Below, one piece after another: positions 3,723-63,680 of a stretch of DNA of 64,000 bases. The stretch is from Minisyncoccia bacterium (GTDB lineage Bacteria; Patescibacteriota; Minisyncoccia; Phycocordibacterales; PALSA-1337), in NCBI GenBank assembly GCA_044228445.1, contig JBGAUV010000001.1:250495-314494 (forward strand). The letters run 5' to 3'. A program made the translations under genes and the position numbers. The number at the start of each line of letters is the position of its first letter. Position 1 is the first letter of the stretch. The notes under the pieces are model-generated. The model had not been told where the DNA came from, made no database searches, and was given only the letters and a program-made list of their open reading frames with translations.

Positions 3723-5250
3723 TTAGTTAAGAGTTTGATCCTAGCTCAGGATGAACGCTGGCGGCGTGGATAAGGCATGCAAGTCAAACGGCTTAGCACT
3801 GTGCTCGCAAATTAATATTTGTTAGTAGAGTGCTAAGCAGTGGCAGACGAGGTAGTAATAAGCAGGTATCAACCTTCGAGTCAAGAATACCTCATCGAAA
3901 GATGAGTTAATACTTGATAGTCTCGAAAGAGTAAAGATTTATCGCTCGAAGATGAGCCTGTTCAGTATCAGCTAGTTGGTAGGGTAATGGCCTACCAAGG
4001 CTTCGACGCTTAGGGGAGGTGAGAGCCTGACCCCCACCGATGGAACTGAGACACGGTCCATACACCTACGGGTGGCCGCAGTCGAGAATCTTCCGCAATG
4101 GACGAAAGTCTGACGGAGCGACGCCGCGTGGATGATGAAGCACTTCGGTGCGTAAAATCCTTTTGCCAGGGAGAAAGTTTATTGATAGTACTTGGCGAAT
4201 AAGAGGTTGCTAAACTCGTGCCAGCAGCAGCGGTAATACGAGTGCCTCAAGCGTTATCCGGAATCATTGGGCGTAAAGGTTGTGTAGGTGGTTATATTAG
4301 TCTTTTGTTAAATTCTTCGGCTTAACCGGGGGCATGCAGAGGAAACGGTATAACTAGAGGATGCGAGGGGTTTCTGGAACTCATAGTGTAGCGGTAAAAT
4401 GCGTTGATATTATGGGGAACACCAAAAGCGAAGGCATGAAACTAGAGCACTCCTGACACTGAAACAAGAAAGCGTGGGTCGCGAATGGGATTAGATACCC
4501 CAGTAGTCCACGCCCTAAACGATCTTCTCTTGCTTTTCGGAGTATCGACCCTCCGAGAGGCGAAGCTAACGCGTTAAGAGAAGCGCCTGGGTAGTACGAC
4601 CGCAAGGTTAAAACTCAAAGGAATAGACGGGGACTTGCACAAGCGGTGGATCATGTGGCTCAATTCGACGGTAAACGAAGAACCTTACCAGGGTTTGAAA
4701 CCTAGCTGAATACTTTAGGAAACTAGAGTAGTCGCAAGACAGTTAGGCAGGTGATGCATGGCCGTCGTCAGTTCGTGGCTTGAGTTGTTCCCTTCAGTGG
4801 GGTAACGAACGCAACCCTCGTTGTCTGTTATATTTGTCAGGCGAGACTGCCCACGACATAGCGCATAAACTAAGTTTGTGCTCTGCGTCGTGGGAGGAAG
4901 GTGAGGATGACGCCAGGTCAGCATGTCCCTTTGATACCCTGGGCTGCACACGTGATACAATCGTATCTACAACAGGACGCAATACCGATAAAAGGTGGAG
5001 CAAATCCTTAGAAAAGATACGTCAGTTTGGATTGAGGTCTGCAACTCGACCTCATGAAACCGGAATCGCTAGTAATCGCAGATCAGCTATGCTGCGGTGA
5101 ATACGTTCTCAAGTCTTGTACTCACCGCCCGTCAACTCAAGGGAGTTGGGAGTACCCGAAGTCCGCGCTTGTCGCGGCCTAAGGTAAGCTCAATGACAGG
5201 GAGTAAGTCGTAACAAGGCACGGGTAGCGGAAGCTGCTCGTGGATTATTT
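3723..5250 (+). rRNA. rrs: 16S ribosomal RNA
   Basis: AGAGTTTGATCCTAGCTCAG at 3730; GTGCCAGCAGCAGCGGTAATACG (515 region, one mismatch to the universal primer); AAGTCGTAACAAGG at 5206; helix 45 with GGAA loop at 5221-5240. Confidence 0.95.
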
Positions 5251-5407
5251 CAAATTGAATCTTGATAATCCCTCAGGGATTATCTTACCGAGTCGATTTT
5301 TGTACTTAATTGTACAAACAAGGGATATTGTTCTACTACCTTACAGTGAACACTCAGTCTGCGAGAGAAAAGACAAAGATCGGTGTCCTCTATAGAGACA
5401 CTGATCG

Positions 5408-5437
5408 GATGAATGGAACAAAATAAAGTACAGTAAT
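5408..5437 (+). other. 3' strand of the 16S processing stem
   Basis: ATGAATGGAACAAAATAAA is complementary to 3701-3720. Confidence 0.6.
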
Positions 5438-5444
5438 ATGAAAG

Positions 5445-5475
5445 AACCGCTTAAAAGGCGGTTTTTTCTTTTTAT
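5445..5475 (+). terminator. Rho-independent terminator closing the 16S transcription unit
   Basis: AACCGC-TTAAAAG-GCGGTT followed by TTTTTCTTTTT. Confidence 0.7.
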
Positions 5476-5563
5476 AAATAATTATTTCCACATTTACTAT
5501 ATTTGATATGTGTGATATGTTTTTAGTGGAAATCTAGACATAGAGTCTAGTTAGAAAGGAGAT

Positions 5564-5722
5564 ATGAACAGACTTCAACTTGCTCGTAGGGTTGAGTATA
5601 GTCAACCCTCTGTTAAAGAACAAAAGCAATCAATCAGTGTTGGTTCATTTTTGCTTGCTTTGTTTATATTTATATTGGCTTTTGGGCCAATGGTAGTAGA
5701 AGGATTTCTTACAACATTTTAA
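5564..5722 (+). CDS. Small (52 aa) protein with a C-terminal TM helix
   Basis: AAAGGAGAT immediately 5' of the ATG; MNRLQLARRVEYSQPSVKEQKQSISVGSFLLALFIFILAFGPMVVEGFLTTF; below the ORF-track size cutoff. Confidence 0.4.
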   Translation: MNRLQLARRVEYSQPSVKEQKQSISVGSFLLALFIFILAFGPMVVEGFLTTF

Positions 5723-5799
5723 GGAGAGAAAGGAGATATGTTTCAATTTTTATAACCACGCGATTCTTTATGCGCGTGGTTTGTCATCTAGTTTAATAT

Positions 5800-6486
5800 A
5801 TGAAAATAAAATTTTTCAAAATAATAGTTTTAATAATAGCAATATTGTTCTCAAAACATGCTTTTGCAAAAGAAGTTATATGTCCTGAGGGGTATATTTG
5901 CTTACCAAAAAATGATCCACTTATACTTGCTTCAACAAGTCCTTGTTTTATAGGTTCAAGCATGACAACCTCTTTTAAGGATTTAGATTCAAAAGCTAAA
6001 TCAATAGGTGATAGTATTTCATTTAAATTATTAAATAAGAATAAAGATTACGCTGGTACTTGGGGAGTATTTAAAAGTGGAAGTGGATCAAGTCCTGATT
6101 ACAATAAAGATTGGGGTTTTGAACTAAGTCTAAATCTTTCAAAATTAAAAACCATAAAGTCTATTACAATTATAAACGATGATGGTAATGAAGGTTGGTC
6201 AACTAGTGCGGATGAAAAGTTATTTGGTAAAAAGCCTTATCCTCTTGTTGTTATAGATAAAAATGGAGAGCAATTAAATTATGAATATGAAGATACTATT
6301 TTTATACCAAAAGGTGAAAGTATTTTAAATCTATACGGTCAGATTGAATATAGTGACTTAAGAAATACGGAAATTGTTGTTATTTTCACTGATAATACTT
6401 ATTTGAATAGTAAGATTATTGAAAATGCTTCAACTCAAGCAAATAATAGTCTTTGGGCTAAGTTAAAATCTAAGTTTGGATTTTAA
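5800..6486 (+). CDS. Secreted protein of unknown function
   Basis: Signal peptide MKIKFFKIIVLIIAILFSKHAFA|KE; no recognisable domain. Confidence 0.6.
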   Translation: MKIKFFKIIVLIIAILFSKHAFAKEVICPEGYICLPKNDPLILASTSPCFIGSSMTTSFKDLDSKAKSIGDSISFKLLNKNKDYAGTWGVFKSGSGSSPDYNKDWGFELSLNLSKLKTIKSITIINDDGNEGWSTSADEKLFGKKPYPLVVIDKNGEQLNYEYEDTIFIPKGESILNLYGQIEYSDLRNTEIVVIFTDNTYLNSKIIENASTQANNSLWAKLKSKFGF

Positions 6487-6523
6487 TTGATGTTTAGTCG
6501 TATTTTTGGTATATTCAACAATG

Positions 6524-6555
6524 TTTTAAATGCGCGTATAGCTGACTTGGTAGGG
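6524..6555 (+). repeat. Degenerate duplicate of the tRNA-Ile 5' half plus its upstream flank
   Basis: ATGCGCGTATAGCTgacTTGGTAGgG versus ATGCGCGTATAGCTcagTTGGTAGaG at 6590-6615; diverges after the D-arm. Confidence 0.6.
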
Positions 6556-6591
6556 TTGAGTGTCACTTATACGTTTTGAGATTTTTACCAT

Positions 6592-6664
6592 GCGCGTATA
6601 GCTCAGTTGGTAGAGCACACCACTGATACTGGTGGGGTCCCTGGTTCGAGTCCAGGTACGCGCA
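6592..6664 (+). tRNA. tRNA-Ile (anticodon GAU), CCA not encoded
   Basis: Manual cloverleaf: acceptor GCGCGTA/TACGCGC, D-arm GCTC/GAGC, anticodon stem CACCA/TGGTG with loop CTGATAC, T-arm CCTGG-TTCGAGT-CCAGG. Confidence 0.9.
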
Positions 6665-6758
6665 CAAAGTTTTTATATTTCAAAAAATGTGGTAATGTAT
6701 TTGTGGAAAGGAGAAAAAATGACCGCATATACATTCGAAGGAAAAAAATAAAAAATCA

Positions 6759-56205: not shown

Positions 56206-59121
56206 ATGAGTATATCAATAAGAAGAGCCGACGGTAGTCTAGCCCCATTTAATGCAGATAAAATAAATCGTTCTATAGAACGTGCATGTATTGGACTTAC
56301 AGATCCAATATCAATGGTTACTCAAATAGCTACAGAAACACAACTTACACTTCATGAAGGTATTACAACTGAAGAAATGGATAAAGCTACAATAAATGCC
56401 GCAGTACAAAATATAAAAGAGGATCCAGAATACGATAAGGTTGCAACTAGATTGCTTTTAAAGACTATATACAGAAAGGTTGTAGGAGAATACGATAAGG
56501 ATGATTATGAAGATTTAAAAAGAAAACATAGAGATGCATTTATAACTTATATAAAACAAGGGGTAAAAAACAAGACTCTTCATTCCAATATGGAAAGTCT
56601 TTTTGATCTTAATGCTTTAGCTGATACTTTAAATATAGATAGAGATGAATTATTCCTATACGCAGGATTAGATGGTTTGGCGCATAGATATATGATAAAA
56701 GATACTAAGGGTAATGTAATTGAAACACCACAGTATTTTTTTATGAGAGTAGCTATGGGTTTGTCTTATGTTGAGAAAAATCCTACAGAATACGCAAAGA
56801 AGTTTTATCATAAAATGTCAAAACATGAATATATCGCTGGAGGTTCAGCAAATCTCGGTGCAGGAACTCCAAGTTCTTCATTATCAAACTGTTTTTTACT
56901 AGAAGTTCATGATGATATGCAACATATAGCAAAGTCTGTATCAGATGTACTTCTACTTTCAAAGAGCTCAGGGGGGTTGGGAGTTTCTATAACAAAGTTA
57001 AGATCTTCCGGTTCACCACTAAAATCAGGTTTTGGAGGAAGTTCAAGCGGTCCTACACCTTTTGCAAAAATAATGGATACATCTATTCGTGCAGTTATGA
57101 GAGGTGGTAAAAAGGTAGGTGCATTGTGTTTCTATATGGAACCATGGCATTTGGATTTTACAGAATTCATAGATTGGAAGAACAATAGCGGAGATGATTA
57201 TGCTCGTATGAGAACAGCAAATACCGCTGTATACATTTCTGATGAATTCATGAAGAGATCTAGAGATGGAAAGGATTGGTATATGTTTGATCCAGCAGAA
57301 ACACCAGATTTAAATGAATTATACGGACAAGCTTTCAGTAAAAGATATATCGAATATGTAGACATGGCTGATAAAGGAATGATGAGAACATTCAAGAAAA
57401 TTCCTGCAAATGAATTATTTAGAAAAATTCTAGTATCAATGCAAACAACATCACATCCTTGGTTAGTTTGGAAAGATACCATAAATCTCCGTGCCTTGAA
57501 TAACAATACAGGAACAATACATATGTCTAATCTATGTACTGAAATATGTTTACCACAGGACAGAGAAAATGTTGCTGTATGTAACCTGGCATCAATAAAC
57601 TTAGCTGCTCACGTAAGCAATAAACAAGTAAACTGGGGAAAGCTAGAAGAAAGTGCAAGACTAGCAGTAAGACAACTCGACAATCTTATCGATATAAACA
57701 TGCTACCTATTCCAGAAGCAGTAAAATCAGATAAAGAAAATAGAGCAATGGGACTAGGGGTAATGGGTTTTGCAGATGTAATAGAAAAACTAGGTATGGC
57801 TTATGACAGTGAACATGCTTGGGATTTTGCAGATAGAATATTTGAATTTGTAAGCTATATGGCTATAGATGAAAGTGCAAATCTAGCTCAAGAAAGAGGT
57901 ATATATAAACATTTTGAAGGATCTATGTGGTCAAAGGGTAAGGTCCCAATAGATTCAATTGAAAATTTAGAAAGAGATAGAGGAATAAAAGTAAGTGTTA
58001 TTAGAGATAGTAAGCATCGTGGTTTAAACTGGAATTTACTTAGAGAAAAAGTTAAAAAAGGAATGAGAAATTCTACTTTAATGGCTGTGGCTCCAAATGC
58101 AAACATTGGTCTTGTTGCAGGTACCACTCCAGGAATAGATGCACGTTTTGCTCAAGTCTTTTCAAGAAATAAAATATCAGGAAAGTATATGGACCTAAAC
58201 CATAACCTAGTAAATGATTTGAAGAACATGGGTATATGGGAAAAAGTGAGAGATCAAATAATTGAAAATCAAGGCGATATTGCACATATAGAAGGAATTC
58301 CACAATATTTGAAGGATATATACAAAACTTCATTTACAACTTCACCTTATGCATATATAGAAGTTGCTGCTAGAGCTCAAAAGTGGGTTGATCAAGCACT
58401 TTCTAGAAATATGTATTTGGAAACAAGAGATCTAGATGAAACTATGGCTATATATGCTACAGCTTGGGAAAAGGGTTTGAAATCAACTTATTATTTACAC
58501 CTAAAACCTCGTCATACAGCAGAACAAAGTACAATAAGAGTAAATAAAGCAGAGAAAATGGGTAAGATAGGCTTTGCTGCTGTAGCAAAAGCAAAAACAG
58601 AGAGCCAATCTCCAATAGAAAAAGAAACAGAAGTAGCTTTCTCTATGCCAAAGCAAACAAGCATACCAGTTTCAAATATAATAGCTAAACCTACCAATAC
58701 CTTTAGCCCTTCAAATACATCTATGTATACTGGAGTACAAAATATTAATTCAAATAAGCCAGTTCAAAAAGATTCTGAACCAGTTGTTTCTATATATAAT
58801 GAACCAACAATATCAAATATAATGTCAGAAGTTCCAGCAAAGGTGCCTGCTATGGTTGGTTTCGGGGCAGTAAAAAAACAAGAAAATATAGAAGTTAAAA
58901 CAGAAGTTAAGAGTCCTCAAATAATAGAAAATGATATAAAACCTCAATTCACAGAAAATAATTTGAACACAAGTTTTACACAAAATAAATATTCAGATAT
59001 ATCATCAATTGGTATGATACAAGCAAAAGAACAAAATGTAGTTCAAAATAAGGTAAAGATGGCTCCCAAGGTTTGTCCAATAGACCCAGCAGAAAGAGCA
59101 CAGTGTGATAGTTGTCAGTAA
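56206..59121 (+). CDS. nrdA: Class I ribonucleoside-diphosphate reductase alpha subunit with ATP-cone and extended C-terminus
   Basis: N-terminal ATP-cone (RRADGSLAPFNADKINRSIERA); NLCTEI; terminal CPIDPAERAQCDSCQ. Confidence 0.9.
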   Translation: MSISIRRADGSLAPFNADKINRSIERACIGLTDPISMVTQIATETQLTLHEGITTEEMDKATINAAVQNIKEDPEYDKVATRLLLKTIYRKVVGEYDKDDYEDLKRKHRDAFITYIKQGVKNKTLHSNMESLFDLNALADTLNIDRDELFLYAGLDGLAHRYMIKDTKGNVIETPQYFFMRVAMGLSYVEKNPTEYAKKFYHKMSKHEYIAGGSANLGAGTPSSSLSNCFLLEVHDDMQHIAKSVSDVLLLSKSSGGLGVSITKLRSSGSPLKSGFGGSSSGPTPFAKIMDTSIRAVMRGGKKVGALCFYMEPWHLDFTEFIDWKNNSGDDYARMRTANTAVYISDEFMKRSRDGKDWYMFDPAETPDLNELYGQAFSKRYIEYVDMADKGMMRTFKKIPANELFRKILVSMQTTSHPWLVWKDTINLRALNNNTGTIHMSNLCTEICLPQDRENVAVCNLASINLAAHVSNKQVNWGKLEESARLAVRQLDNLIDINMLPIPEAVKSDKENRAMGLGVMGFADVIEKLGMAYDSEHAWDFADRIFEFVSYMAIDESANLAQERGIYKHFEGSMWSKGKVPIDSIENLERDRGIKVSVIRDSKHRGLNWNLLREKVKKGMRNSTLMAVAPNANIGLVAGTTPGIDARFAQVFSRNKISGKYMDLNHNLVNDLKNMGIWEKVRDQIIENQGDIAHIEGIPQYLKDIYKTSFTTSPYAYIEVAARAQKWVDQALSRNMYLETRDLDETMAIYATAWEKGLKSTYYLHLKPRHTAEQSTIRVNKAEKMGKIGFAAVAKAKTESQSPIEKETEVAFSMPKQTSIPVSNIIAKPTNTFSPSNTSMYTGVQNINSNKPVQKDSEPVVSIYNEPTISNIMSEVPAKVPAMVGFGAVKKQENIEVKTEVKSPQIIENDIKPQFTENNLNTSFTQNKYSDISSIGMIQAKEQNVVQNKVKMAPKVCPIDPAERAQCDSCQ

Positions 59122-59210: not shown

Positions 59211-60224
59211 ATGTTAATAGGAAAAGCATCACCAGAAGATACAAGTCTACACCCAATAAAGTATAAATGGGCTTATGATCTATACAATCAAGCAGTTAGA
59301 AATACTTGGTTTCCACATGAAATTACTCTAAAAGAGGATATGGATGATTGGAAGAAGATGACTGATGATGAAAGACATGCAGTTACATTCCTAATGGCAT
59401 TCTTTAACCCTGCAGAACTTATTGTAAATCGTTCAATTGCTTTAGGAATTTACCCTTATCTAAAGTCTCCAGAGTGCCATCTTTATCTAGCAAAACAAAT
59501 GTGGGAAGAGGCAAATCACTGTGTGGCTTTTGAATATGTTCTAGAAACATTTCCTTTTGATAGAGAAAAAATATATAACCTTCATCTTGAAGTTCCTTCA
59601 ATGAAAGCAAAAGAGGATTATATAAATAAATACATGAAGAGAATGACCGATGTTTCTCTAGATGTAAGTACTACAGAAGGTAAAAAAGATTTTATACGAA
59701 ATCTTGTTGCTACAAACATTGTGATGGAAGGAATATGGTTCTATTCAGGTTTTATGGTTGCTCTTTCATTCCGTCAGAGAAAACAACTTAGAAACTTCGG
59801 TTCTATGATTAACTGGGTTTTGAGAGATGAAAGTCTTCACTTAAAATTCGGTATGAACCTTATTCACAATATCTTGGAGGAAAATCATGATCTATTAACT
59901 GAAGATTTTGCAAATGAAATAAGAAATATAATCATAGAAGGAGTTGATAAAGAAGTTGATTATAATATGGATCTTTTCCCAAACGGTATTCTTGGTCTAA
60001 ATGCTGATTATGTTAATCAATACGTAAAGTATGTTACAGATCGTCGCCTAGAAGAACTAGGTTTTCCTCCACACTACAATGCTACAAACCCAGCAAAATG
60101 GATGTCTACTGCTACAGATGTTTATGAGCTTGTTAATTTCTTTGAAGCACAAAATACAAGTTATGAAGTAGATGTAAGAGCACATTCAGAAAAGAAAGAG
60201 GAGAAGAAAGAGGCGGGGGAGTAA
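59211..60224 (+). CDS. nrdB: Ribonucleotide reductase beta subunit, class Ic-like (R2c)
   Basis: Metal site EEANHCVAFEY has Phe at His+4, where class Ia has the radical Tyr; first ligand is Glu (NPAELIV). Confidence 0.85.
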   Translation: MLIGKASPEDTSLHPIKYKWAYDLYNQAVRNTWFPHEITLKEDMDDWKKMTDDERHAVTFLMAFFNPAELIVNRSIALGIYPYLKSPECHLYLAKQMWEEANHCVAFEYVLETFPFDREKIYNLHLEVPSMKAKEDYINKYMKRMTDVSLDVSTTEGKKDFIRNLVATNIVMEGIWFYSGFMVALSFRQRKQLRNFGSMINWVLRDESLHLKFGMNLIHNILEENHDLLTEDFANEIRNIIIEGVDKEVDYNMDLFPNGILGLNADYVNQYVKYVTDRRLEELGFPPHYNATNPAKWMSTATDVYELVNFFEAQNTSYEVDVRAHSEKKEEKKEAGE

Positions 60225-60226
60225 TT

Positions 60227-60646
60227 ATGTTAGTTGTTAAGACTAAAATTAAAAATAGTGAAATTGAAGGACTAGGTCTATTTGCTGATCAGTTTATACC
60301 TAAAGGTAGTGTAATTTGGAAATATGATCCAAGTTTTGATATTTATTTTGATCCTAAGGAGGTAGAAAAAATGTCAGAACCGCAAAAAGACCTGATAATA
60401 CATTTTGCTTATCTTTCAAAAAAAAGTGGTAAATATGTTTATTCAATAGATAATACAAGATTCACAAATCATTCAAATAAACCAAATACCGTAGAAGATG
60501 AAAATGTTTGTAGTGATGATTTAGAAATATGTACTATTGCTGTTAAGGATATTCAAATAGGGGAGGAAATTACTATTGATTATCGGGTAATTGACGCAGT
60601 GGATGAAGGTAGTAATGAGGAGTATTTGAAGACGGTAGTTCTATAG
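60227..60646 (+). CDS. SET-domain protein (putative lysine methyltransferase)
   Basis: GLGLFA, RFTNHSNKPN, GEEITIDY; starts 3 nt after the nrdB stop, preceded by GGGGGAG. Confidence 0.8.
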   Translation: MLVVKTKIKNSEIEGLGLFADQFIPKGSVIWKYDPSFDIYFDPKEVEKMSEPQKDLIIHFAYLSKKSGKYVYSIDNTRFTNHSNKPNTVEDENVCSDDLEICTIAVKDIQIGEEITIDYRVIDAVDEGSNEEYLKTVVL

Positions 60647-60663
60647 AGTTTTTATGGTTTAGG
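60628..60663 (+). repeat. Junction motif copy 1
   Basis: GAAGACGGTAGTTCTATAGAGTTTTTATGGTTTAGG; supplies the last 6 codons and the stop of the SET gene. Confidence 0.7.
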
Positions 60664-60703
60664 AATAAAAGTGGGCTCACCGAAACGAATTTCAGTGAGC
60701 CCA
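60660..60703 (-). terminator. Minus-strand terminator hairpin
   Basis: On the minus strand: TGGGCTCAC-N14-GTGAGCCCA followed by CTTTTATT. Confidence 0.5.
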
Positions 60704-60748
60704 GGGACAACCTTTTTCTCATGTTTCGCTCGCCACTACTTAGATACC

Positions 60749-60921
60749 TAAGATTTAGGCAAAAATTTACCCCACTTACATTTCCGTAAGTGGGGCGTAC
60801 CTAGGAATTTAGGATGACTTGAATCGTCTTGCGACGAATGATCAGAGCCATAAAAACCTAGATATATAAGATACTGACTTCTACATCACAGCAAACTACT
60901 ATAACTTTGTCAAGTGACAAA
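60749..60921 (+). repeat. 173-bp repeat, copy 1
   Basis: 172/173 identical to 62711-62883 by manual alignment (C/T difference at 60888 versus 62850). Confidence 0.9.
60758..60878 (-). ncRNA. Candidate sRNA A, copy 1 (~120 nt)
   Basis: Minus-strand promoter TTGACA-N17-TGTGAT (60885-60913); internal TCGTC-GCAA-GACGA hairpin; terminator CCCCACTTAC-GGAAAT-GTAAGTGGGG then TAAATTTTTG. Confidence 0.5.
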
Positions 60922-60937
60922 TGTGTGTACCTAAAAC

Positions 60938-60964
60938 AGTGGTCTCATAGAGTTTAAGGTCTAG
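60938..60964 (+). repeat. Junction motif copy 2
   Basis: AGTGGTCTCATAGAGTTTAAGGTCTAG. Confidence 0.7.
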
Positions 60965-60969
60965 CTATA

Positions 60970-60998
60970 TTGACATACTAAACTAAATGTGCTATTTT
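60970..60998 (+). promoter_or_regulatory. Promoter of cassette A: TTGACA-N17-TATTTT with extended -10 TG
   Basis: Read directly. Confidence 0.5.
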
Positions 60999-61017
60999 TG
61001 TATGTAATAGCACATTT
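60985..61017. promoter_or_regulatory. 11-bp perfect inverted repeat spanning the -10/TSS (operator-like)
   Basis: AAATGTGCTAT-N11-ATAGCACATTT. Confidence 0.55.
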
Positions 61018-61050
61018 CAACGATTTCAACCCAAAACCATTAGGAGAACC

Positions 61051-61425
61051 ATGAGCAAGCCTTCTTTCACCGTATTTGTTGGCATAAAGGGCGAATTCTC
61101 AGAAGAAGATTACGCCAAACTTCCGTCCGAGCTTCGAAAAGCATACTCGCCGTGTCCTGAATGGGATCTGGGAGAGGAAATCATTATCGACGGATTGGAA
61201 TTTGATTCCTTTGACCTTGGTCGCGATGACACTGCTGATCCGGGAGAATATGTGGGCTTCGGCGTCCATATCTTCGGTCAGTGGTATGACAGCGGAGCTA
61301 CTTGCTTCGCTCTTGATGAGCTTCAAACAATCGAATCTGTTCGTCAGAAGATGACAACTCTCTTCGATCAATGGAAGCTCGATGCCAAAGTCGAAGTGTT
61401 CTGCTTTGCAGGATACAATTCATAA
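61051..61425 (+). CDS. Island cassette A: acidic 124-aa protein, unknown function
   Basis: TAGGAGA-N5-ATG; GC-rich codon usage unlike the flanks; own terminator. Confidence 0.65.
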   Translation: MSKPSFTVFVGIKGEFSEEDYAKLPSELRKAYSPCPEWDLGEEIIIDGLEFDSFDLGRDDTADPGEYVGFGVHIFGQWYDSGATCFALDELQTIESVRQKMTTLFDQWKLDAKVEVFCFAGYNS

Positions 61426-61441
61426 CCCATCAACTCACTCC

Positions 61442-61480
61442 AGAAAACCCCTGTCGCGAGATGGTGGGTTTTCTGTTTTA
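61442..61480 (+). terminator. Rho-independent terminator of cassette A
   Basis: AGAAAACCC...GGGTTTTCT-GTTTTAT. Confidence 0.7.
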
Positions 61481-61654
61481 TAAAATTCCAATATGTTGAT
61501 ACTAACAGACTTGAACGGCATCCTAAATAGATGTCATTTATTGTTACTTGCTATATAAAAATCTCGTTGATATGTTGTTAGGTAAGACGAGCTTGAAATC
61601 AAAATAAAAACTAGAGCATCTTCTATGGGGAATTCAATCAGTATTTAACTCTGT

Positions 61655-61688
61655 GAAGACGGTAGTATTATAGAGTTTAAGGTTTAGA
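61655..61688 (+). repeat. Junction motif copy 3
   Basis: GAAGACGGTAGTATTATAGAGTTTAAGGTTTAGA; the upstream AGTATTT is also shared with copy 1. Confidence 0.7.
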
Positions 61689-61692
61689 CTAC

Positions 61693-61720
61693 TTGACATA
61701 TGACCATGTCGTGATATAAT
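61693..61720 (+). promoter_or_regulatory. Promoter of cassette B: TTGACA-N16-TATAAT with extended -10 (TGa)
   Basis: Near-consensus sigma70 promoter read directly. Confidence 0.7.
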
Positions 61721-61779
61721 TTAAAAGGACTAGGATTTTTCCTAATGCTGTCCAGCAAAATCATACTTGGAGGATAGAA

Positions 61780-62139
61780 ATGTACTCTGACGATAAAACT
61801 CTAAAAGAGTTCATGACTGTACTTGTAAGTACAGCTGCGGCTCGGAGAAACTACTTGGATGTCCCTAGCGATTTCATTTTGAGACATCCCTGGACACTGA
61901 AATACCTTTCCAATTTCGCTGAGGCTGACGATTTCATGCAGATCGCGAAAACGGAAGGAGTCCAGATTGTTTGCGAGGATGAACCCAAAAACATTCAAGA
62001 GTTTCGCCGGGACCATGGTCTCAAACCACAGGTTCGCTACAAAGTGTTTGTTCCAGCCGAAACAAAAATCAGAACAAAAGAACAGATCTTCAAGTTCGAA
62101 AGACAAGGAGATGGTTCATATGTTCCACTCAATGGCTGA
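61780..62139 (+). CDS. Island cassette B: 119-aa protein, unknown function
   Basis: TGGAGGA-N5-ATG; own terminator. Confidence 0.65.
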   Translation: MYSDDKTLKEFMTVLVSTAAARRNYLDVPSDFILRHPWTLKYLSNFAEADDFMQIAKTEGVQIVCEDEPKNIQEFRRDHGLKPQVRYKVFVPAETKIRTKEQIFKFERQGDGSYVPLNG

Positions 62140-62142
62140 ACC

Positions 62143-62187
62143 AAAACCCCATCTACGCTTTCATGAGAAGATGGGGTTTTGTCTTTT
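62143..62187 (+). terminator. Rho-independent terminator of cassette B
   Basis: AAAACCCCATCT-N14-AGATGGGGTTTT-GTCTTTT. Confidence 0.75.
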
Positions 62188-62188
62188 A

Positions 62189-62222
62189 GAAGATGGTGGT
62201 TTAATGTAGTTTAAAATTTAGA
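62189..62222 (+). repeat. Junction motif copy 4
   Basis: GAAGATGGTGGTTTAATGTAGTTTAAAATTTAGA. Confidence 0.6.
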
Positions 62223-62388
62223 TAAAAGAAAGCCGGCCAAACCTTATGGGTCTGGCCGGGAAAGTGATGGGTATGCGCCCATCTGCGGATCATTTACGAT
62301 CATTTTGCCAGTAAAATAAGGTTATTTCTGGTTACGTATCCCTGGTATTGTGTCCAGACACGTAACTTATGAATACTAACCTTATTCT
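62222..62388 (-). ncRNA. Candidate sRNA B (~165 nt), same promoter as sRNA A, different body
   Basis: Promoter TTGACA-N17-TATGAT (62395-62423, minus strand). Long hairpin AATAAGGTTA...TAACCTTATT enclosing GTTACGT/ACGTAAC. GATGGG-CGCATA-CCCATC hairpin. Terminator CCGGCCAGACC-CATAAGG-GGTTTGGCCGG then CTTTCTTTT. Confidence 0.5.
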
Positions 62389-62429
62389 TTTACCATCATA
62401 GCAAATTACTATAACTTTGTCAAGTATTC

Positions 62430-62462
62430 AAAGATGTCGGTGTTATGGAGTTCAAGTTCTAA
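62430..62462 (+). repeat. Junction motif copy 5
   Basis: AAAGATGTCGGTGTTATGGAGTTCAAGTTCTAA. Confidence 0.55.
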
Positions 62463-62478
62463 CCTCTATTGATATAAT
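62451..62478 (+). promoter_or_regulatory. Promoter of cassette C: extended -10 TGaTATAAT, weak -35 TTCAAG
   Basis: Read directly. Confidence 0.5.
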
Positions 62479-62522
62479 TAATCTAGAGTGTTAATCTTCT
62501 TTTTAAGAAAGGAGAGTACATC

Positions 62523-62720
62523 ATGATCAAAATTACTGTCCGTAAAGAAGGAGAGAGAACCTTTGCGGCCTATGTGGACGATGAAAATATGCGGCGCATA
62601 GGTGAGTCTCGAGGAGAAGCTGTTGGCAAAGTCGTATCTGATCTCATTGAACAAAGGTCAGTACGGTTGGAAGATTGTCAAGTGCATCAAATCGAGATTA
62701 AACAAAAATATAAGATTTAG
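62523..62720 (+). CDS. Island cassette C: 65-aa protein, faint HicB/DUF1902-like N-terminal pattern
   Basis: AAAGGAGAG-N6-ATG; MIKITVRKEGERTFAAYVDD...GESRGEAVGKVVSDLIE. Confidence 0.55.
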   Translation: MIKITVRKEGERTFAAYVDDENMRRIGESRGEAVGKVVSDLIEQRSVRLEDCQVHQIEIKQKYKI

Positions 62721-62883
62721 GCAAAAATTTACCCCACTTACATTTCCGTAAGTGGGGCGTACCTAGGAATTTAGGATGACTTGAATCGTCTTGCGACGAA
62801 TGATCAGAGCCATAAAAACCTAGATATATAAGATACTGACTTCTACATCATAGCAAACTACTATAACTTTGTCAAGTGACAAA
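62711..62883 (+). repeat. 173-bp repeat, copy 2
   Basis: See copy 1; begins inside the last codons of cassette C. Confidence 0.9.
62720..62840 (-). ncRNA. Candidate sRNA A, copy 2
   Basis: Promoter TTGACA-N17-TATGAT (62847-62875, minus strand); body identical to copy 1. Confidence 0.5.
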
Positions 62884-62910
62884 GATAGTGGTCTCATCGG
62901 GTTTAAAATA
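62881..62910 (+). repeat. Junction motif copy 6 (degenerate)
   Basis: AAAGATAGTGGTCTCATCGGGTTTAAAATA. Confidence 0.5.
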
Positions 62911-62917
62911 ACCAGTA

Positions 62918-62946
62918 TTTACAATTTGTATAATTTAGTATATAAA
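62918..62946 (+). promoter_or_regulatory. Promoter of cassette D: TTTACA-N17-TATAAA
   Basis: Read directly. Confidence 0.5.
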
Positions 62947-62981
62947 AAATGTAGACTTAATTTAACACTGAAAGGTGCATC

Positions 62982-63200
62982 ATGAGTATTCTAAGAGAAT
63001 TCCGTAACGCCAGCCCAAGTGAAAAAGACCCTGCAAAACTTATTTTATTCACAGTATTTGCTGACCTTAATGCTCGGCACGGCTTCGGGGATTTCTGGAG
63101 CGGTATTAACAATGATATAAAAGAAGAAATTTTGAAAACAAATCTCGAAAAGATAAGAGAAATACTGAAGAAAAAGACTCAAACCAAAAACAAAGATTGA
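62982..63200 (+). CDS. Island cassette D: 72-aa protein, unknown function
   Basis: AAAGGTG-N4-ATG; own terminator. Confidence 0.6.
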   Translation: MSILREFRNASPSEKDPAKLILFTVFADLNARHGFGDFWSGINNDIKEEILKTNLEKIREILKKKTQTKNKD

Positions 63201-63224
63201 AAAAAAGTGACTGAATCAATCCAG

Positions 63225-63268
63225 GCCTCGTGTATATACATAAAAGTAAACACGAGGCTTTGAATTTT
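63225..63268 (+). terminator. Rho-independent terminator of cassette D
   Basis: GCCTCGTG-N18-CACGAGGC-TTTGAATTTT. Confidence 0.75.
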
Positions 63269-63322
63269 ATATATCACACTTATATTTTAATAAATAACCA
63301 TTTGCCATAATATATTAAGATA

Positions 63323-63331
63323 TGGTATAAT
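63323..63331 (+). promoter_or_regulatory. Extended -10 (TGgTATAAT) of the rnpB promoter
   Basis: 6-7 nt upstream of the predicted RNase P RNA 5' end. Confidence 0.5.
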
Positions 63332-63336
63332 TATTA

Positions 63337-63672
63337 GGTACCAGACAGTTGCTATGATACGAAAGTATCGTAGAGGAAAGTCCGAACATTGGCCTGACGC
63401 AAGTTAGGCAGAAAGGTAGCGGGTAACGCCCGTCAGTCGAAGGACTAGAGGTGCGAACAGAGACGTCTTTATTGGAAACGATAAAGAGACCCTTCGGGGT
63501 TAGCTTGTATAGAAATATATGAGGTGCAACGGCAAAATCCTTACCCCAATGCAAGGCCGTGCTTTATAGGAAACTATAAAGAGTGCCGCTTGAGGTTAAT
63601 TGCAAAATTAATCCCAGATAAATGACTGTCGTTCGTTTTTAACGAATACAGAATTCGGCTTACAGGTACAAT
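63337..63672 (+). ncRNA. rnpB: RNase P RNA, bacterial type A
   Basis: ACCAGACAGTTGC, GAGGAAAGTCCG, GGTAACGCC, GCAAGGCC, GCCGCTTGAGG, AGATAAATGACTGTC, ACAGAATTCGGCTTA all align to the E. coli M1 RNA conserved blocks. Confidence 0.9.
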
Positions 63673-63680
63673 ATGAAAAA

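What the first reader, a model, noticed from the sequence alone, without database searches (positions are those of the whole stretch)
60628..63300. Compositionally foreign 2.7-kb array of autonomous small-gene cassettes interleaved with divergent sRNA genes, next to rnpB
G+C rises sharply here (mid-40s % by eye, against ~30% in the flanks). Four small ORFs (124, 119, 65 and 72 aa, with no similarity to each other or to families I recognise) each have their own sigma70-type promoter and a canonical SD. Three have a clean intrinsic terminator; cassette C is followed only by the repeat's hairpin. Three minus-strand units with a conserved promoter lie between them, each encoding a structured, terminator-ended RNA. 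Every unit boundary carries the same ~34-nt motif. No recombinase, replication or structural phage gene is present. The layout resembles neither an integron (the cassettes carry promoters), a TA locus, a CRISPR array nor a typical prophage remnant. It is closest to a string of moron-like modules with dedicated riboregulators. This is my best candidate for an undescribed system, possibly a mobile cassette platform, a host-interaction locus or a defence locus.
Basis: partly seen in the sequence, partly recalled or inferred. Interest (0 to 1): 0.85.

Follow-up and report, generated by a model that had tools for sequence, protein, structure and literature searches.

The report
Mini gene-cassette array in a Patescibacterium
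This 3-kb stretch is a string of tiny self-expressed gene and small-RNA cassettes, each bounded by a 33-base recombination-type site that copies the end of the ychF gene; the same arrangement recurs across Patescibacteria (CPR bacteria), in one clade next to a conserved Xer-like recombinase, and I found no description of it.

Summary
Window 60227-63263 holds about nine compact units: the SET-domain gene, four orphan ORFs (124, 119, 65 and 72 aa) and three or four minus-strand small-RNA units. Mean G+C is 38.9% against 28.8% for the rest of the window. Six same-strand copies of a roughly 33-nt motif occur here and nowhere else in 64 kb.

The new result is that the motif mimics the last 11 codons plus the stop codon of ychF. 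In 72 related loci, almost all from Patescibacteria MAGs and metagenomes, 133 copies form same-strand arrays with spacings of 74-1138 bp. The arrays start either at the true 3' end of ychF or about 350 bp downstream of a conserved Xer-like tyrosine recombinase (23 of 23 metagenome loci). Cassettes are shared between genomes, and homology between relatives breaks inside the motif.

The best reading is an integrase-less array of an integron-like cassette system that works by site-specific recombination. It is not an integron by membership, because the integrase type, attC and Pc criteria all fail. "Dedicated riboregulators" and "defence locus" are not. Recombinase activity is inferred, not shown. 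I rate it a new variant of a known kind, interest about 0.72.

The parts
60227..60646 (+). SET-domain gene (139 aa). It is the first cassette of the array. It has no promoter of its own and starts 2 nt after the nrdB stop codon. Its own stop codon lies inside motif copy 1.
   Evidence: Pfam SET domain, E = 9e-16. The same gene, 76% identical at protein level, is flanked by motifs on both sides in L020 and follows ychF directly in L018 and L027. Homology to L020 starts at the ATG and runs into the motif.
60629..60660 (+). Boundary motif copy 1. It is degenerate, with a 2-nt insertion relative to the consensus.
60654..60748 (-). Short reverse unit with a terminator hairpin at 60703..60672. It may be a small RNA or a remnant. 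In the sibling contig L001 it is followed by a further 49 nt that include a full motif.
   Evidence: fold z = -3.1
60749..60921 (-). Small-RNA unit D1, copy a. The promoter is inferred by homology at 60913..60885 (its -10 is TGTGAT). The terminator is at 60796..60769.
   Evidence: 173-nt repeat, 99% identical to 62711-62883; terminator
60933..60964 (+). Boundary motif copy 2
60970..61475 (+). ORF A cassette. Promoter 60970-60998, a conserved 5'UTR hairpin at 60985-61017, ORF 61051-61425 (124 aa), terminator about 61441-61475.
61481..61655 (.). AT-rich spacer (30.9% G+C) with no predicted structure. It may be a decayed cassette whose motif was lost.
   Evidence: In L005 a motif follows the ORF A terminator directly.
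61656..61687 (+). Boundary motif copy 3, a perfect match to the search pattern
61693..62181 (+). ORF B cassette. Promoter 61693-61720 (12 of 12 consensus positions), ORF 61780-62139 (119 aa), terminator 62142-62181.
62190..62221 (+). Boundary motif copy 4
62233..62425 (-). Small-RNA unit S3. Promoter 62423..62395, terminator 62259..62233.
   Evidence: fold z = -4.98
62431..62462 (+). Boundary motif copy 5 (3 mismatches)
62463..62720 (+). ORF C cassette (65 aa, ORF 62523-62720). In this window its last codons come from the 173-nt repeat. The sibling contig L002 has a 62-aa ORF with its own terminator and a full motif, 79 nt that are absent here.
62711..62883 (-). Small-RNA unit D1, copy b. Promoter 62875..62847, terminator 62758..62731.
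   Evidence: fold z = -6.95
62882..62913 (+). Boundary motif copy 6
62914..63263 (+). ORF D cassette (72 aa, ORF 62982-63200) with a terminator at 63220-63263. No motif follows it, and the rnpB promoter comes next.
   Evidence: The junction to rnpB is confirmed by contigs L085-L089.

Best explanation
**What it is.** Window 60227-63263 is an integrase-less array of mini gene cassettes. It belongs to a site-specific-recombination cassette system found widely in Patescibacteria.

**The site.** Each cassette (0.1-1.1 kb, median about 0.32 kb) is bounded by a roughly 33-bp double-stranded site with consensus GAAGATGGTGGTGNNATAGAGTTTAAGATTTAG. This site mimics the last 11 codons plus the stop codon of ychF.

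**Inferred mechanism.**
- A conserved Xer-like tyrosine recombinase recombines a cassette-borne site with a chromosomal site.
- The chromosomal site can be the true 3' end of ychF, the site about 350 bp downstream of the recombinase gene, or any site already in an array.
- Cassettes therefore accumulate as direct-repeat arrays. Insertion at ychF restores the gene's C-terminus and stop codon, so it should not disrupt the gene.

**Expression.** Unlike integron cassettes, most units are insulated transcription units. A near-consensus sigma-70 promoter starts about 5 nt after the site and an intrinsic terminator ends just before the next site. Reverse-oriented cargo shows the mirror arrangement. 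Expression should therefore not depend on position in the array.

**Cargo.** It consists of small orphan proteins, a SET-domain methyltransferase and small structured RNAs. This looks like an exchangeable accessory gene pool, acquired here from relatives with higher G+C.

**Shown versus inferred.**
- Shown: the anatomy, the ychF mimicry, the taxonomic spread, the linkage to the recombinase, the sharing of cassettes between genomes, and homology breakpoints at the site.
- Inferred: that this recombinase catalyses the events, that single cassettes move as units, and where the crossover lies.
For: 1. **Motif confined to the array.** There are 6 same-strand copies in the array and none in the other 61 kb, with 0.01 expected.
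2. **ychF mimicry.** The motif matches the ychF C-terminal coding sequence K-D-G-D-V-[IM]-E-F-[KR]-[IV]-stop. This rests on the fuzzy motif matches that overlap the ychF stop, the YchF translations ending ...KDGDVIEFRV* (L008) and ...KDGDVMEFKI* (L010), with tblastn placing ychF at the motif, and the L010 sequence. Logos of 87 array copies and 23 ychF ends are identical from position 17 onward. They differ at one diagnostic codon, GGT in array copies and GAY in ychF ends.
3. **Taxonomic spread.** One exact-pattern scan of 185,579 species genomes returned 47 loci, about 43 of them in Patescibacteria MAGs. In 22 of these ychF lies directly upstream in the same orientation.
4. **Array geometry.** 133 copies in 72 loci are all on a single strand within each locus, at spacings of 74-1138 bp. 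The 77 cassettes have a median length of 323 bp.
5. **Recombinase linkage.** A 305-aa tyrosine recombinase lies about 350-390 bp upstream of a motif copy in most of the 23 of 23 metagenome loci that include downstream DNA (about 780 bp in L062), and in 5 genome loci.
6. **Breakpoints at the site.**
   - L063 and L005 are 90% identical through the integrase gene up to the motif core and unrelated beyond it.
   - L025 and L027 have ychF genes 86% identical. Homology stops inside the motif, the first cassettes differ, and homology resumes 0.84 kb and 1.8 kb later.
7. **Shared cassettes.** The same cassettes occur in different genomes at 79-92% nucleotide identity. The ORF A cassette occurs in integrase-linked, ychF-linked and orphan arrays, always with a motif or motif remnant at a fixed distance from its -35 element.
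8. **SET-domain gene.** It is flanked by motifs in L020 and follows ychF directly in L018 and L027.
9. **Variation within this species.** Contigs of this very species differ in cassette and motif content (L001, L002, L086).
10. **Composition.** The array is 38.9% G+C in a 29% genome. That matches the 38-48% of most related loci measured; three range from 33% to 57%.
Against: - There is no recombinase and no ychF within this 64-kb window. The only integrase contigs from the same study, L076 and L078, are 40-57% G+C, so they come from other organisms.
- The integrase-linked loci are orthologous: they share trpR-like, PRTase-like, ncRNA and integrase genes in the same order. The 23/23 linkage is therefore a conserved state in one clade, not 23 independent observations.
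- Most integrase-proximal sites are single copies. Arrays occur mainly at ychF, in genomes where I could not test for the integrase.
- No circular cassette or excision junction was observed.
- In L008 the ORF A cassette is inverted relative to the motif. Simple integration of a one-site circle does not predict this.
- The variable triplet inside the motif tracks neither neighbouring cassette, so the crossover point is undefined.
- Several boundaries in the window lack a motif.
- The short haplotype L086 could be homologous recombination between the 173-nt repeats, or an assembly collapse.
Confidence: 0.6

Rival explanations
1. The array is made of scars from serial integration. Larger integrative elements (prophages or islands that carry their own integrase) repeatedly integrated at the 3' end of ychF, as in tandem accretion at tRNA genes or in tycheposon islands. 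They then decayed. What remains are att remnants and small pieces of cargo, and the small units were never individually mobile.
For: - The site copies the 3' end of a target gene, which is the classic attP/attB logic.
- ychF is a known prophage integration site in pneumococci (PMC6375853, found).
- Integrase homologues at 57% identity sit at the ends of prophage-like or mobile-element regions (L083, L084).
- Prochlorococcus islands contain scattered partial-tRNA repeats and degenerate elements (10.1101/2020.12.28.424599).
- Many sites in the window are degenerate or missing.
Against: - All 64 motif spacings are 74-1138 bp, and no interval holds an integrase or phage-gene fragment.
- The units are intact and tightly packed, with the promoter about 5 nt after the site and the terminator abutting the next site.
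- Whole units are shared between genomes with boundaries at the sites.
- No viral contig carries the site.
- There is no phage or plasmid DNA match.
Confidence: 0.2
2. The system is of the Xer/dif type. The recombinase is the housekeeping chromosome-dimer resolvase of these bacteria, and the motif is their dif site, lying next to the xer gene as in XerS/difSL. The cassettes would then be IMEX-like or dif-module-like hitchhikers.
For: - The recombinase is Xer-like. Its best NCBIfam hits are XerA, XerD and XerC, and its best PDB hit is XerA at 2.5e-15.
- It is very conserved (87-92% amino-acid identity, while neighbouring genes are 45-81% identical), it keeps its gene order, and it sits next to a single conserved site.
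- The family is widespread in Patescibacteria, with 342 clusters.
Against: - All Xer scores are far below the curated cut-offs (129 bits against 220).
- The motif has no dyad symmetry and no fold.
- Genes are co-oriented and GC skew keeps the same sign on both sides of the site, both in L005 and in the window, so this is not a replication terminus.
- The primary site lies inside the ychF coding sequence.
- Up to 5-6 direct copies per array would be unstable for a real dif site.
- Homologues at 57% identity are integrases of mobile elements or prophages and have no motif nearby.
Confidence: 0.08
3. The motif is a regulatory DNA element, such as an operator or UP-like element that co-regulates the adjacent promoters. 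The arrays would have arisen by local duplication rather than recombination.
For: The motif lies at a fixed distance of 35-38 nt (motif start to -35) from the forward-cassette promoters, and it sits between divergent promoters.
Against: - The motif also precedes the 3' ends (terminators) of reverse units, where it cannot act on a promoter.
- It is always in one orientation whatever the cargo orientation.
- It is a copy of the ychF coding end.
- Homology between genomes breaks exactly at it.
- The cassettes are mutually unrelated, so they are not duplicates.
Confidence: 0.05
4. The array is a misassembly or chimera of foreign DNA placed into a low-G+C contig.
For: There is a compositional jump. 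The 173-nt repeats can confuse assemblers. The window lacks two motif-bearing segments that sibling contigs have.
Against: Independent assemblies from at least 6 samples reproduce the nrdB-SET-array junction and the ORF D-rnpB junction at 99-100% identity.
Confidence: 0.02

Closest known systems
Integrons (IntI, attI, attC cassette arrays, including sedentary chromosomal integrons and CALINs)
   Same: - Arrays of small, mostly single-gene cassettes.
- Each cassette is bounded by one recombination site, and all sites have the same orientation.
- Cassette content varies between relatives.
- A tyrosine recombinase lies next to a primary site in some genomes.
- Integrase-less arrays occur elsewhere. 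The window would be the equivalent of a CALIN (a cluster of attC sites lacking an integron integrase).
   Different: - The recombinase is Xer-like, not IntI (TIGR02249 scores 56 bits against a cut-off of 265).
- The site is a 33-bp unstructured sequence, not a 55-140-nt folded attC.
- There is no Pc promoter. Most cassettes carry their own promoter and terminator and can be in either orientation.
- Many cassettes are RNA genes.
- The site mimics the end of the ychF coding sequence, and arrays start at ychF.
- The recombinase gene is co-oriented with the array.
Tandem accretion of integrative elements at the 3' end of a gene (tRNA, tmRNA or protein-gene islands; Prochlorococcus tycheposon islands, 10.1101/2020.12.28.424599)
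   Same: - The att repeats are partial copies of the target gene's 3' end.
- New arrivals push older ones outward.
- Degenerate repeats mark older events.
- The result is a hot spot of flexible genes in a streamlined genome.
   Different: - Units here are 0.1-1.1 kb and carry no integration or replication genes.
- They are intact single transcription units.
- The recombinase, where seen, is a single gene in conserved gene order rather than one per element.
Xer-dependent elements: IMEX elements at dif, and pdif modules of Acinetobacter plasmids (PMC6449649, PMC11705084)
   Same: - Small modules without a recombinase, bounded by short (about 30-bp) sites of a Xer-type recombinase supplied in trans.
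- The modules carry accessory genes with their own promoters.
   Different: - pdif sites alternate in orientation and are dyad-symmetric, whereas these sites are all direct and asymmetric.
- The location is not a replication terminus.
- The site lies inside a coding sequence.
Prophage integration in ychF of Streptococcus pneumoniae (PMC6375853)
   Same: ychF is used as an attachment locus by a tyrosine integrase.
   Different: That case is a full prophage. This is an array of mini-cassettes in a different phylum, with a different site.

Membership tests
Integron | IntI-type integrase (integron-integrase subfamily with the IntI-specific insertion) | tested here: not met
   The window has no tyrosine recombinase. 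The recombinase linked to the motif elsewhere scores 56 bits on TIGR02249 (cut-off 265) and 26 bits on NF011946 (cut-off 435).
Integron | attC sites: imperfect inverted repeats of 55-140 nt that fold as single-stranded hairpins | tested here: not met
   The motif is about 33 nt and has no dyad symmetry. Its single-stranded DNA minimum free energy is 0 to -0.1 kcal/mol, no better than shuffles.
Integron | Promoterless cassettes expressed from a common Pc promoter | tested here: not met
   ORF A and ORF B have consensus promoters flagged by the scan, and the small-RNA units have their own as well. Forward cassettes in other genomes start with TTGACA about 5 nt after the site. Only the SET-domain cassette lacks a promoter.
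Integron | Array of cassettes, one same-orientation site per cassette, with content varying between relatives | tested here: met
Xer/dif system and IMEX elements | The recombinase is an equivalog of XerC, XerD, XerS, XerH or XerA | tested here: inconclusive
   These families give the best hits, but all fall below the curated cut-offs: XerA 129 bits against 220, XerD 114 against 330, XerC 114 against 335. The nearest solved structure is XerA at 2.5e-15.
Xer/dif system and IMEX elements | The site is dif: dyad-symmetric, about 28-31 bp, single copy, at the replication terminus (GC-skew switch) | tested here: not met
   There is no dyad symmetry. There is no change in skew or gene orientation at the site in the window or in L005. 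There are up to 5-6 copies per array. The test is limited to stretches of 20-64 kb.
pdif modules | Modules bounded by sites in alternating (inverted) orientation | tested here: not met
   133 of 133 copies are on one strand within each locus.
Tandem integrative-element island (tRNA-type, tycheposon-type) | att repeats are partial copies of the 3' end of the target gene | tested here: met
   The motif equals the ychF 3' end.
Tandem integrative-element island (tRNA-type, tycheposon-type) | Units are kilobase-sized elements that carry, or retain fragments of, integrase or replication genes | tested here: not met
   Units are 100-1105 bp, and none has a recombinase hit.
CRISPR array | Repeats of 23-50 nt separated by spacers of 25-70 nt, with cas genes | tested here: not met
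   The spacers are 0.1-1.1 kb transcription units. No CRISPR family was found by Rfam.
Antisense or trans riboregulators of neighbouring genes (type I TA-like) | Complementarity between the small RNA and the target mRNA | tested here: not met
   Duplex energies against the 5' regions of ORFs A-D and the SET-domain gene are no better than shuffled controls (z from -0.76 to +1.42).
Phage morons or prophage remnant | Embedded in, or homologous to, phage genomes | tested here: not met
   No PHROG hit below E = 0.06. No blastn match in the phage or plasmid collections. The motif is absent from viral contigs.

The most novel reading that the evidence does not exclude
Patescibacteria (CPR) carry a second, independently evolved gene-capture system that is functionally analogous to integrons.
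- A domesticated Xer-like tyrosine recombinase shuffles mini-cassettes of 0.1-1 kb between short double-stranded sites.
- The sites mimic the 3' end of ychF.
- Each cassette carries its own promoter and terminator.
- A sizeable share of the cassettes encode small RNAs rather than proteins.

The window would then be an integrase-less array of this system, served in trans.
Probability: 0.45. Interest if true: 0.85.

Novelty: new variant of a known kind. Interest (0 to 1): 0.72.

Why it matters
CPR/Patescibacteria have tiny genomes and few recognised routes of gene exchange. Little is known about how they gain and lose accessory genes.

A conserved cassette platform would be a concrete mechanism for that flexibility. 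It has a short, searchable site and seems to be present in dozens of species. The site would also let cassettes be harvested systematically from metagenomes, as attC sites do for integrons.

Three features would broaden the idea of a gene cassette beyond the integron model:
- the self-contained design, with a promoter and terminator in every unit;
- RNA-only cassettes;
- a recombination site hidden in the last codons of an essential-type GTPase gene.

The cargo (a SET-domain methyltransferase, orphan small proteins and structured small RNAs) gives candidates for host-interaction factors in episymbionts.

Tried and rejected
- **Rfam.** At gathering threshold the whole window gave only 16S rRNA, tRNA-Ile and rnpB. 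A permissive scan of 60200-63400 gave only noise.
- **Protein families.** Pfam, PHROGs, PADLOC and NCBIfam gave nothing for ORFs A-D. PDB sequence searches for ORF C and ORF D gave nothing meaningful.
- **Small RNAs as regulators of neighbouring genes.** Rejected, because there is no complementarity.
- **Motif as a folded attC-like site.** Rejected.
- **Motif on viral contigs (a free attP).** None found.
- **Known phage or plasmid module.** No DNA match.
- **Recombinase or ychF in the window.** None found.
- **Shared gene order around nrdAB or rnpB.** None of the fetched loci shares it with the window.
- **The structured RNA upstream of the integrase as a guide for the site.** It has no similarity or complementarity to the motif.
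- **Crossover point.** I tried to locate it from the variable positions of the motif in shared cassettes. The result was inconclusive.
- **Literature.** Searches for a described CPR integron-like system or ychF-anchored cassette system found nothing.

Full report
**1. What is in the window**

The region lies downstream of nrdA (56206-59121), nrdB (59211-60224) and a SET-domain gene (60227-60646; Pfam SET, E = 9e-16). It lies upstream of rnpB (63333-63678, Rfam RF00010, 120 bits). The window as a whole is 29.3% G+C. The stretch 60647-63263 is 38.9%, with peaks of 44-48% over ORF A and ORF B.

Three minus-strand units share a 32-nt promoter block and end in intrinsic terminators. Two of them are copies of a 173-nt repeat, 99% identical. 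Their predicted RNAs fold far better than shuffled sequences (z = -6.95 and -4.98).

A motif of 25-33 nt occurs six times. All copies are on the + strand and all lie between 60629 and 62906. There are none in the remaining 61 kb, where 0.01 would be expected.

Independent metagenome contigs from several samples reproduce both junctions at 99-100% identity (L001, L086, L085-L089). Chimerism is therefore excluded.

**2. The key finding: the motif is a copy of the end of ychF**

Homologues of ORF A led to loci where the motif coincides with the last codons of ychF. In L010 the sequence AAAGACGGTGACGTGATGGAGTTTAAGATTTAG encodes K-D-G-D-V-M-E-F-K-I-stop. L008 shows the same.

I then ran one exact-pattern scan of 185,579 species genomes. 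It returned 47 loci, about 43 of them in Patescibacteria MAGs (Paceibacteria, Parcubacteria and MAGs labelled Saccharibacteria). In 22 of these, ychF lies directly upstream in the same orientation. The ychF end counts as the first copy and is followed by one to four further motif copies.

I compared logos of 87 array copies and 23 ychF ends.
- They are identical from position 17 to the stop codon.
- They differ at one diagnostic codon: GGT in array copies and GAY (Asp) in genuine ychF ends.
- The array copies therefore descend from an element-type site, not from repeated local duplication of ychF.

Over 72 loci, all 133 copies are on a single strand within each locus, at spacings of 74-1138 bp.

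**3. Cassette anatomy is general**

The 77 intervals between motifs are 100-1105 bp long, with a median of 323 bp.
- Forward units begin with TTGACA about 5 nt after the site and end with a terminator that abuts the next site.
- Reverse units begin with a reverse-complement terminator directly after the site and end with a reverse-complement promoter 6-10 nt before the next site.
- Short units of 260 nt or less tend to be structured on the reverse strand (median z = -2.66; 9 of 21 below -3). This fits small-RNA cargo, as in the window.

The SET-domain gene is itself a cassette. In L020 it is flanked by motifs, and in L018 and L027 it follows ychF directly. Homology between the window and L020 starts at the ATG and runs into the motif. 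The array therefore starts at 60227, not 60628.

**4. Evidence for exchange**

Whole cassettes are shared between different genomes at 79-92% nucleotide identity.

The ORF A cassette occurs in several settings, always with a motif or a motif remnant at a fixed distance upstream of its -35 element:
- next to the recombinase in L005;
- after ychF in L010 and L008;
- between unrelated housekeeping genes in L006 and L009;
- in this window.

L025 and L027 have ychF genes that are 86% identical. Their homology stops inside the motif, their first cassettes differ, and homology resumes 0.84 kb and 1.8 kb later.

Contigs of the window's own species also differ:
- L001 and L002 carry 49-nt and 79-nt segments, each with a full motif, that the window lacks. 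Both deletions end at the same motif position, GAGTT|TAAGAT.
- L086 lacks everything between the two 173-nt repeats. That last case could also be homologous recombination or an assembly collapse.

**5. The recombinase**

In L005 a 305-aa tyrosine recombinase lies about 350 bp upstream of a motif, followed by the ORF A cassette. Close relatives (72-100% identical) were found in 5 genome loci and 24 metagenome loci. All 23 metagenome loci that include downstream DNA have a motif on the same strand, about 350-390 bp after the stop codon in most and about 780 bp in L062.

These loci share gene order: a trpR-like gene, a 340-aa PRTase-like gene, a structured RNA, the integrase, a small basic ORF, the motif, a variable stretch of 0.6-8 kb, and then LeuRS. 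L063 and L005 are 90% identical up to the motif core and unrelated beyond it.

The enzyme is Xer-like. Its best hits are XerA, XerD and XerC, all below the curated cut-offs. It is clearly not an IntI, and its nearest solved structure is XerA.

The wider family has 342 clusters in Patescibacteria. Members at 57% identity sit at the ends of prophage-like or mobile-element regions and have no motif nearby.

Two caveats apply. The integrase-linked loci are orthologous, so the linkage is one conserved state rather than many independent events. I also could not test whether genomes with ychF arrays, or the window's genome, encode this enzyme. The window holds neither the integrase nor ychF, and the integrase contigs from the same study have a different G+C.

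**6. Best explanation and rivals**

Best explanation (confidence 0.6): an integrase-less array of a site-specific-recombination cassette system. It works like an integron but is built differently. It has a short, unstructured double-stranded site that mimics the ychF 3' end, a Xer-like recombinase, self-expressed cassettes in either orientation, and RNA cassettes.

Rivals:
- **Scars of serial integration of larger elements at ychF (0.2).** The uniformly tiny, intact and shared units argue against it.
- **A Xer/dif or IMEX-type system (0.08).** The motif has no dyad symmetry, there is no change in skew or gene orientation at the site, the site lies inside a coding sequence, and there are many direct copies.
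- **A purely regulatory motif (0.05).** It also occurs at 3' ends, has a constant orientation, and marks homology breakpoints.
- **Misassembly (0.02).**

**7. Cargo and the small RNAs**

ORFs A-D have no family, phage-family or defence-system match. ORF A and ORF B give confident models (pLDDT 80 and 89) without an informative structural neighbour.

The small RNAs match no Rfam family and show no complementarity to the 5' regions of neighbouring ORFs. Their function is therefore open. The "dedicated riboregulator" idea is not supported.

**8. Novelty**

The general principle is known: a tyrosine recombinase, short sites and arrays of exchangeable modules. Examples are integrons, pdif modules and tRNA-anchored islands such as those built by tycheposons.

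Full-text searches found no description of a ychF-mimic site, of self-expressed mini-cassettes that include RNA cassettes, or of any integron-like system in CPR bacteria.

I rate it a new variant of a known kind, with real potential. The site is short, conserved and searchable, and it points to a mechanism for genome flexibility in a major uncultured radiation.

Noticed in passing
L005 8376-8612, and the same position in L032, L037, L050 and L058-L080. Not in the window.: A conserved structured RNA of about 230-270 nt lies between the PRTase-like gene and the recombinase. It has its own consensus promoter. It ends in a terminator-like hairpin about 15 nt before the integrase start codon. RNAalifold on 12 sequences predicts 48 pairs, 15 of them with compensatory changes. 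One long-range helix (GATGCTAN with N'TAGCATC) overlaps the terminator loop, so the RNA could be an attenuator or riboswitch for the integrase, or a stable ncRNA. It has no Rfam match and no similarity to the motif.
   Followed up: partly
window 61457-61475 and 62166-62181; also L016, L019, L020, L023, L033, L041, L045, L046, L049: The 3' arm of the terminators that close forward cassettes (GAGATGGTGGGTTTTC, AGAAGATGGGGTTTTG) resembles the 5' half of the boundary motif (GAAGATGGTGGT). The same terminator module of about 55 nt closes otherwise unrelated cassettes in many genomes. It could be an accessory recombinase-binding site or a scar of site duplication.
   Followed up: partly
window 60749 and 62711, compared with L001 316-360 and L002 1845-1923: Both copies of the 173-nt repeat in the window start at the same position inside the motif (GAGTT|TAAGATTTAGGC). 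Sibling contigs have a full motif plus 49 nt or 79 nt more at these places. The same breakpoint occurs twice. This is either a candidate crossover point or an artefact of repeat assembly.
   Followed up: partly
L086 (ERZ724505) compared with window 60922-62710: This is a short haplotype or contig in which nrdB, SET and one copy of the 173-nt unit join directly to ORF D and rnpB. ORF A, ORF B, small-RNA unit S3 and ORF C are missing. The segment between the repeats was assembled separately as L002 from the same sample.
   Followed up: partly
window 60985-61017: A perfect 12-bp inverted repeat (AAATGTGCTATT ... AATAGCACATTT) overlaps the -10 element and the 5'UTR of the ORF A cassette. The TAGCACAT core is conserved in the ORF A cassettes of L005, L006, L009 and L010. 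It may be an operator or a leader hairpin.
   Followed up: no
window 60222-60229: The SET-domain gene starts 2 nt after the nrdB stop codon and has no promoter of its own. In other genomes the same cassette follows ychF equally closely. It seems to depend on read-through from the upstream gene.
   Followed up: partly
window 56206-59121: NrdA is 971 aa. Before the terminal Cys motif (CPIDPAERAQCDSCQ) it carries a low-complexity C-terminal extension of about 250 aa, rich in Ser, Asn, Gln, Lys and Pro.
   Followed up: no
window 3723-6665: The 16S rRNA gene (3723-5255) is followed by a 228-aa ORF (5800-6486) and then tRNA-Ile (6592-6665). No 23S rRNA gene was detected anywhere in the 64 kb, so the rRNA genes appear to be unlinked.
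   Followed up: no
L078 1385-1409: Inside an integrase-proximal array, one site is of the ychF type (GGGGATGTGACGGAGTTTAAGG, with the Asp codon GAT). It looks as if a cassette had been transferred from a ychF-anchored site.
   Followed up: no
L008 7174-7680: Here the ORF A cassette is inverted relative to the motif orientation, unlike in the window, L005 and L010. Simple integration of a one-site circle does not explain this.
   Followed up: no
L005 1-8235; L065 and L075 flanks: The DNA on both sides of the recombinase block is accessory-type and differs between genomes. On the 5' side, L005 has a copper-resistance-like cluster (45-54% G+C), L075 has NucS-like and ThiF-family genes, and L065 has an AAA_23 ATPase and an S49 peptidase. 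On the 3' side, L075 has a RhuM-family gene and L065 has a large serine recombinase. The recombinase locus therefore sits within a wider variable region.
   Followed up: partly
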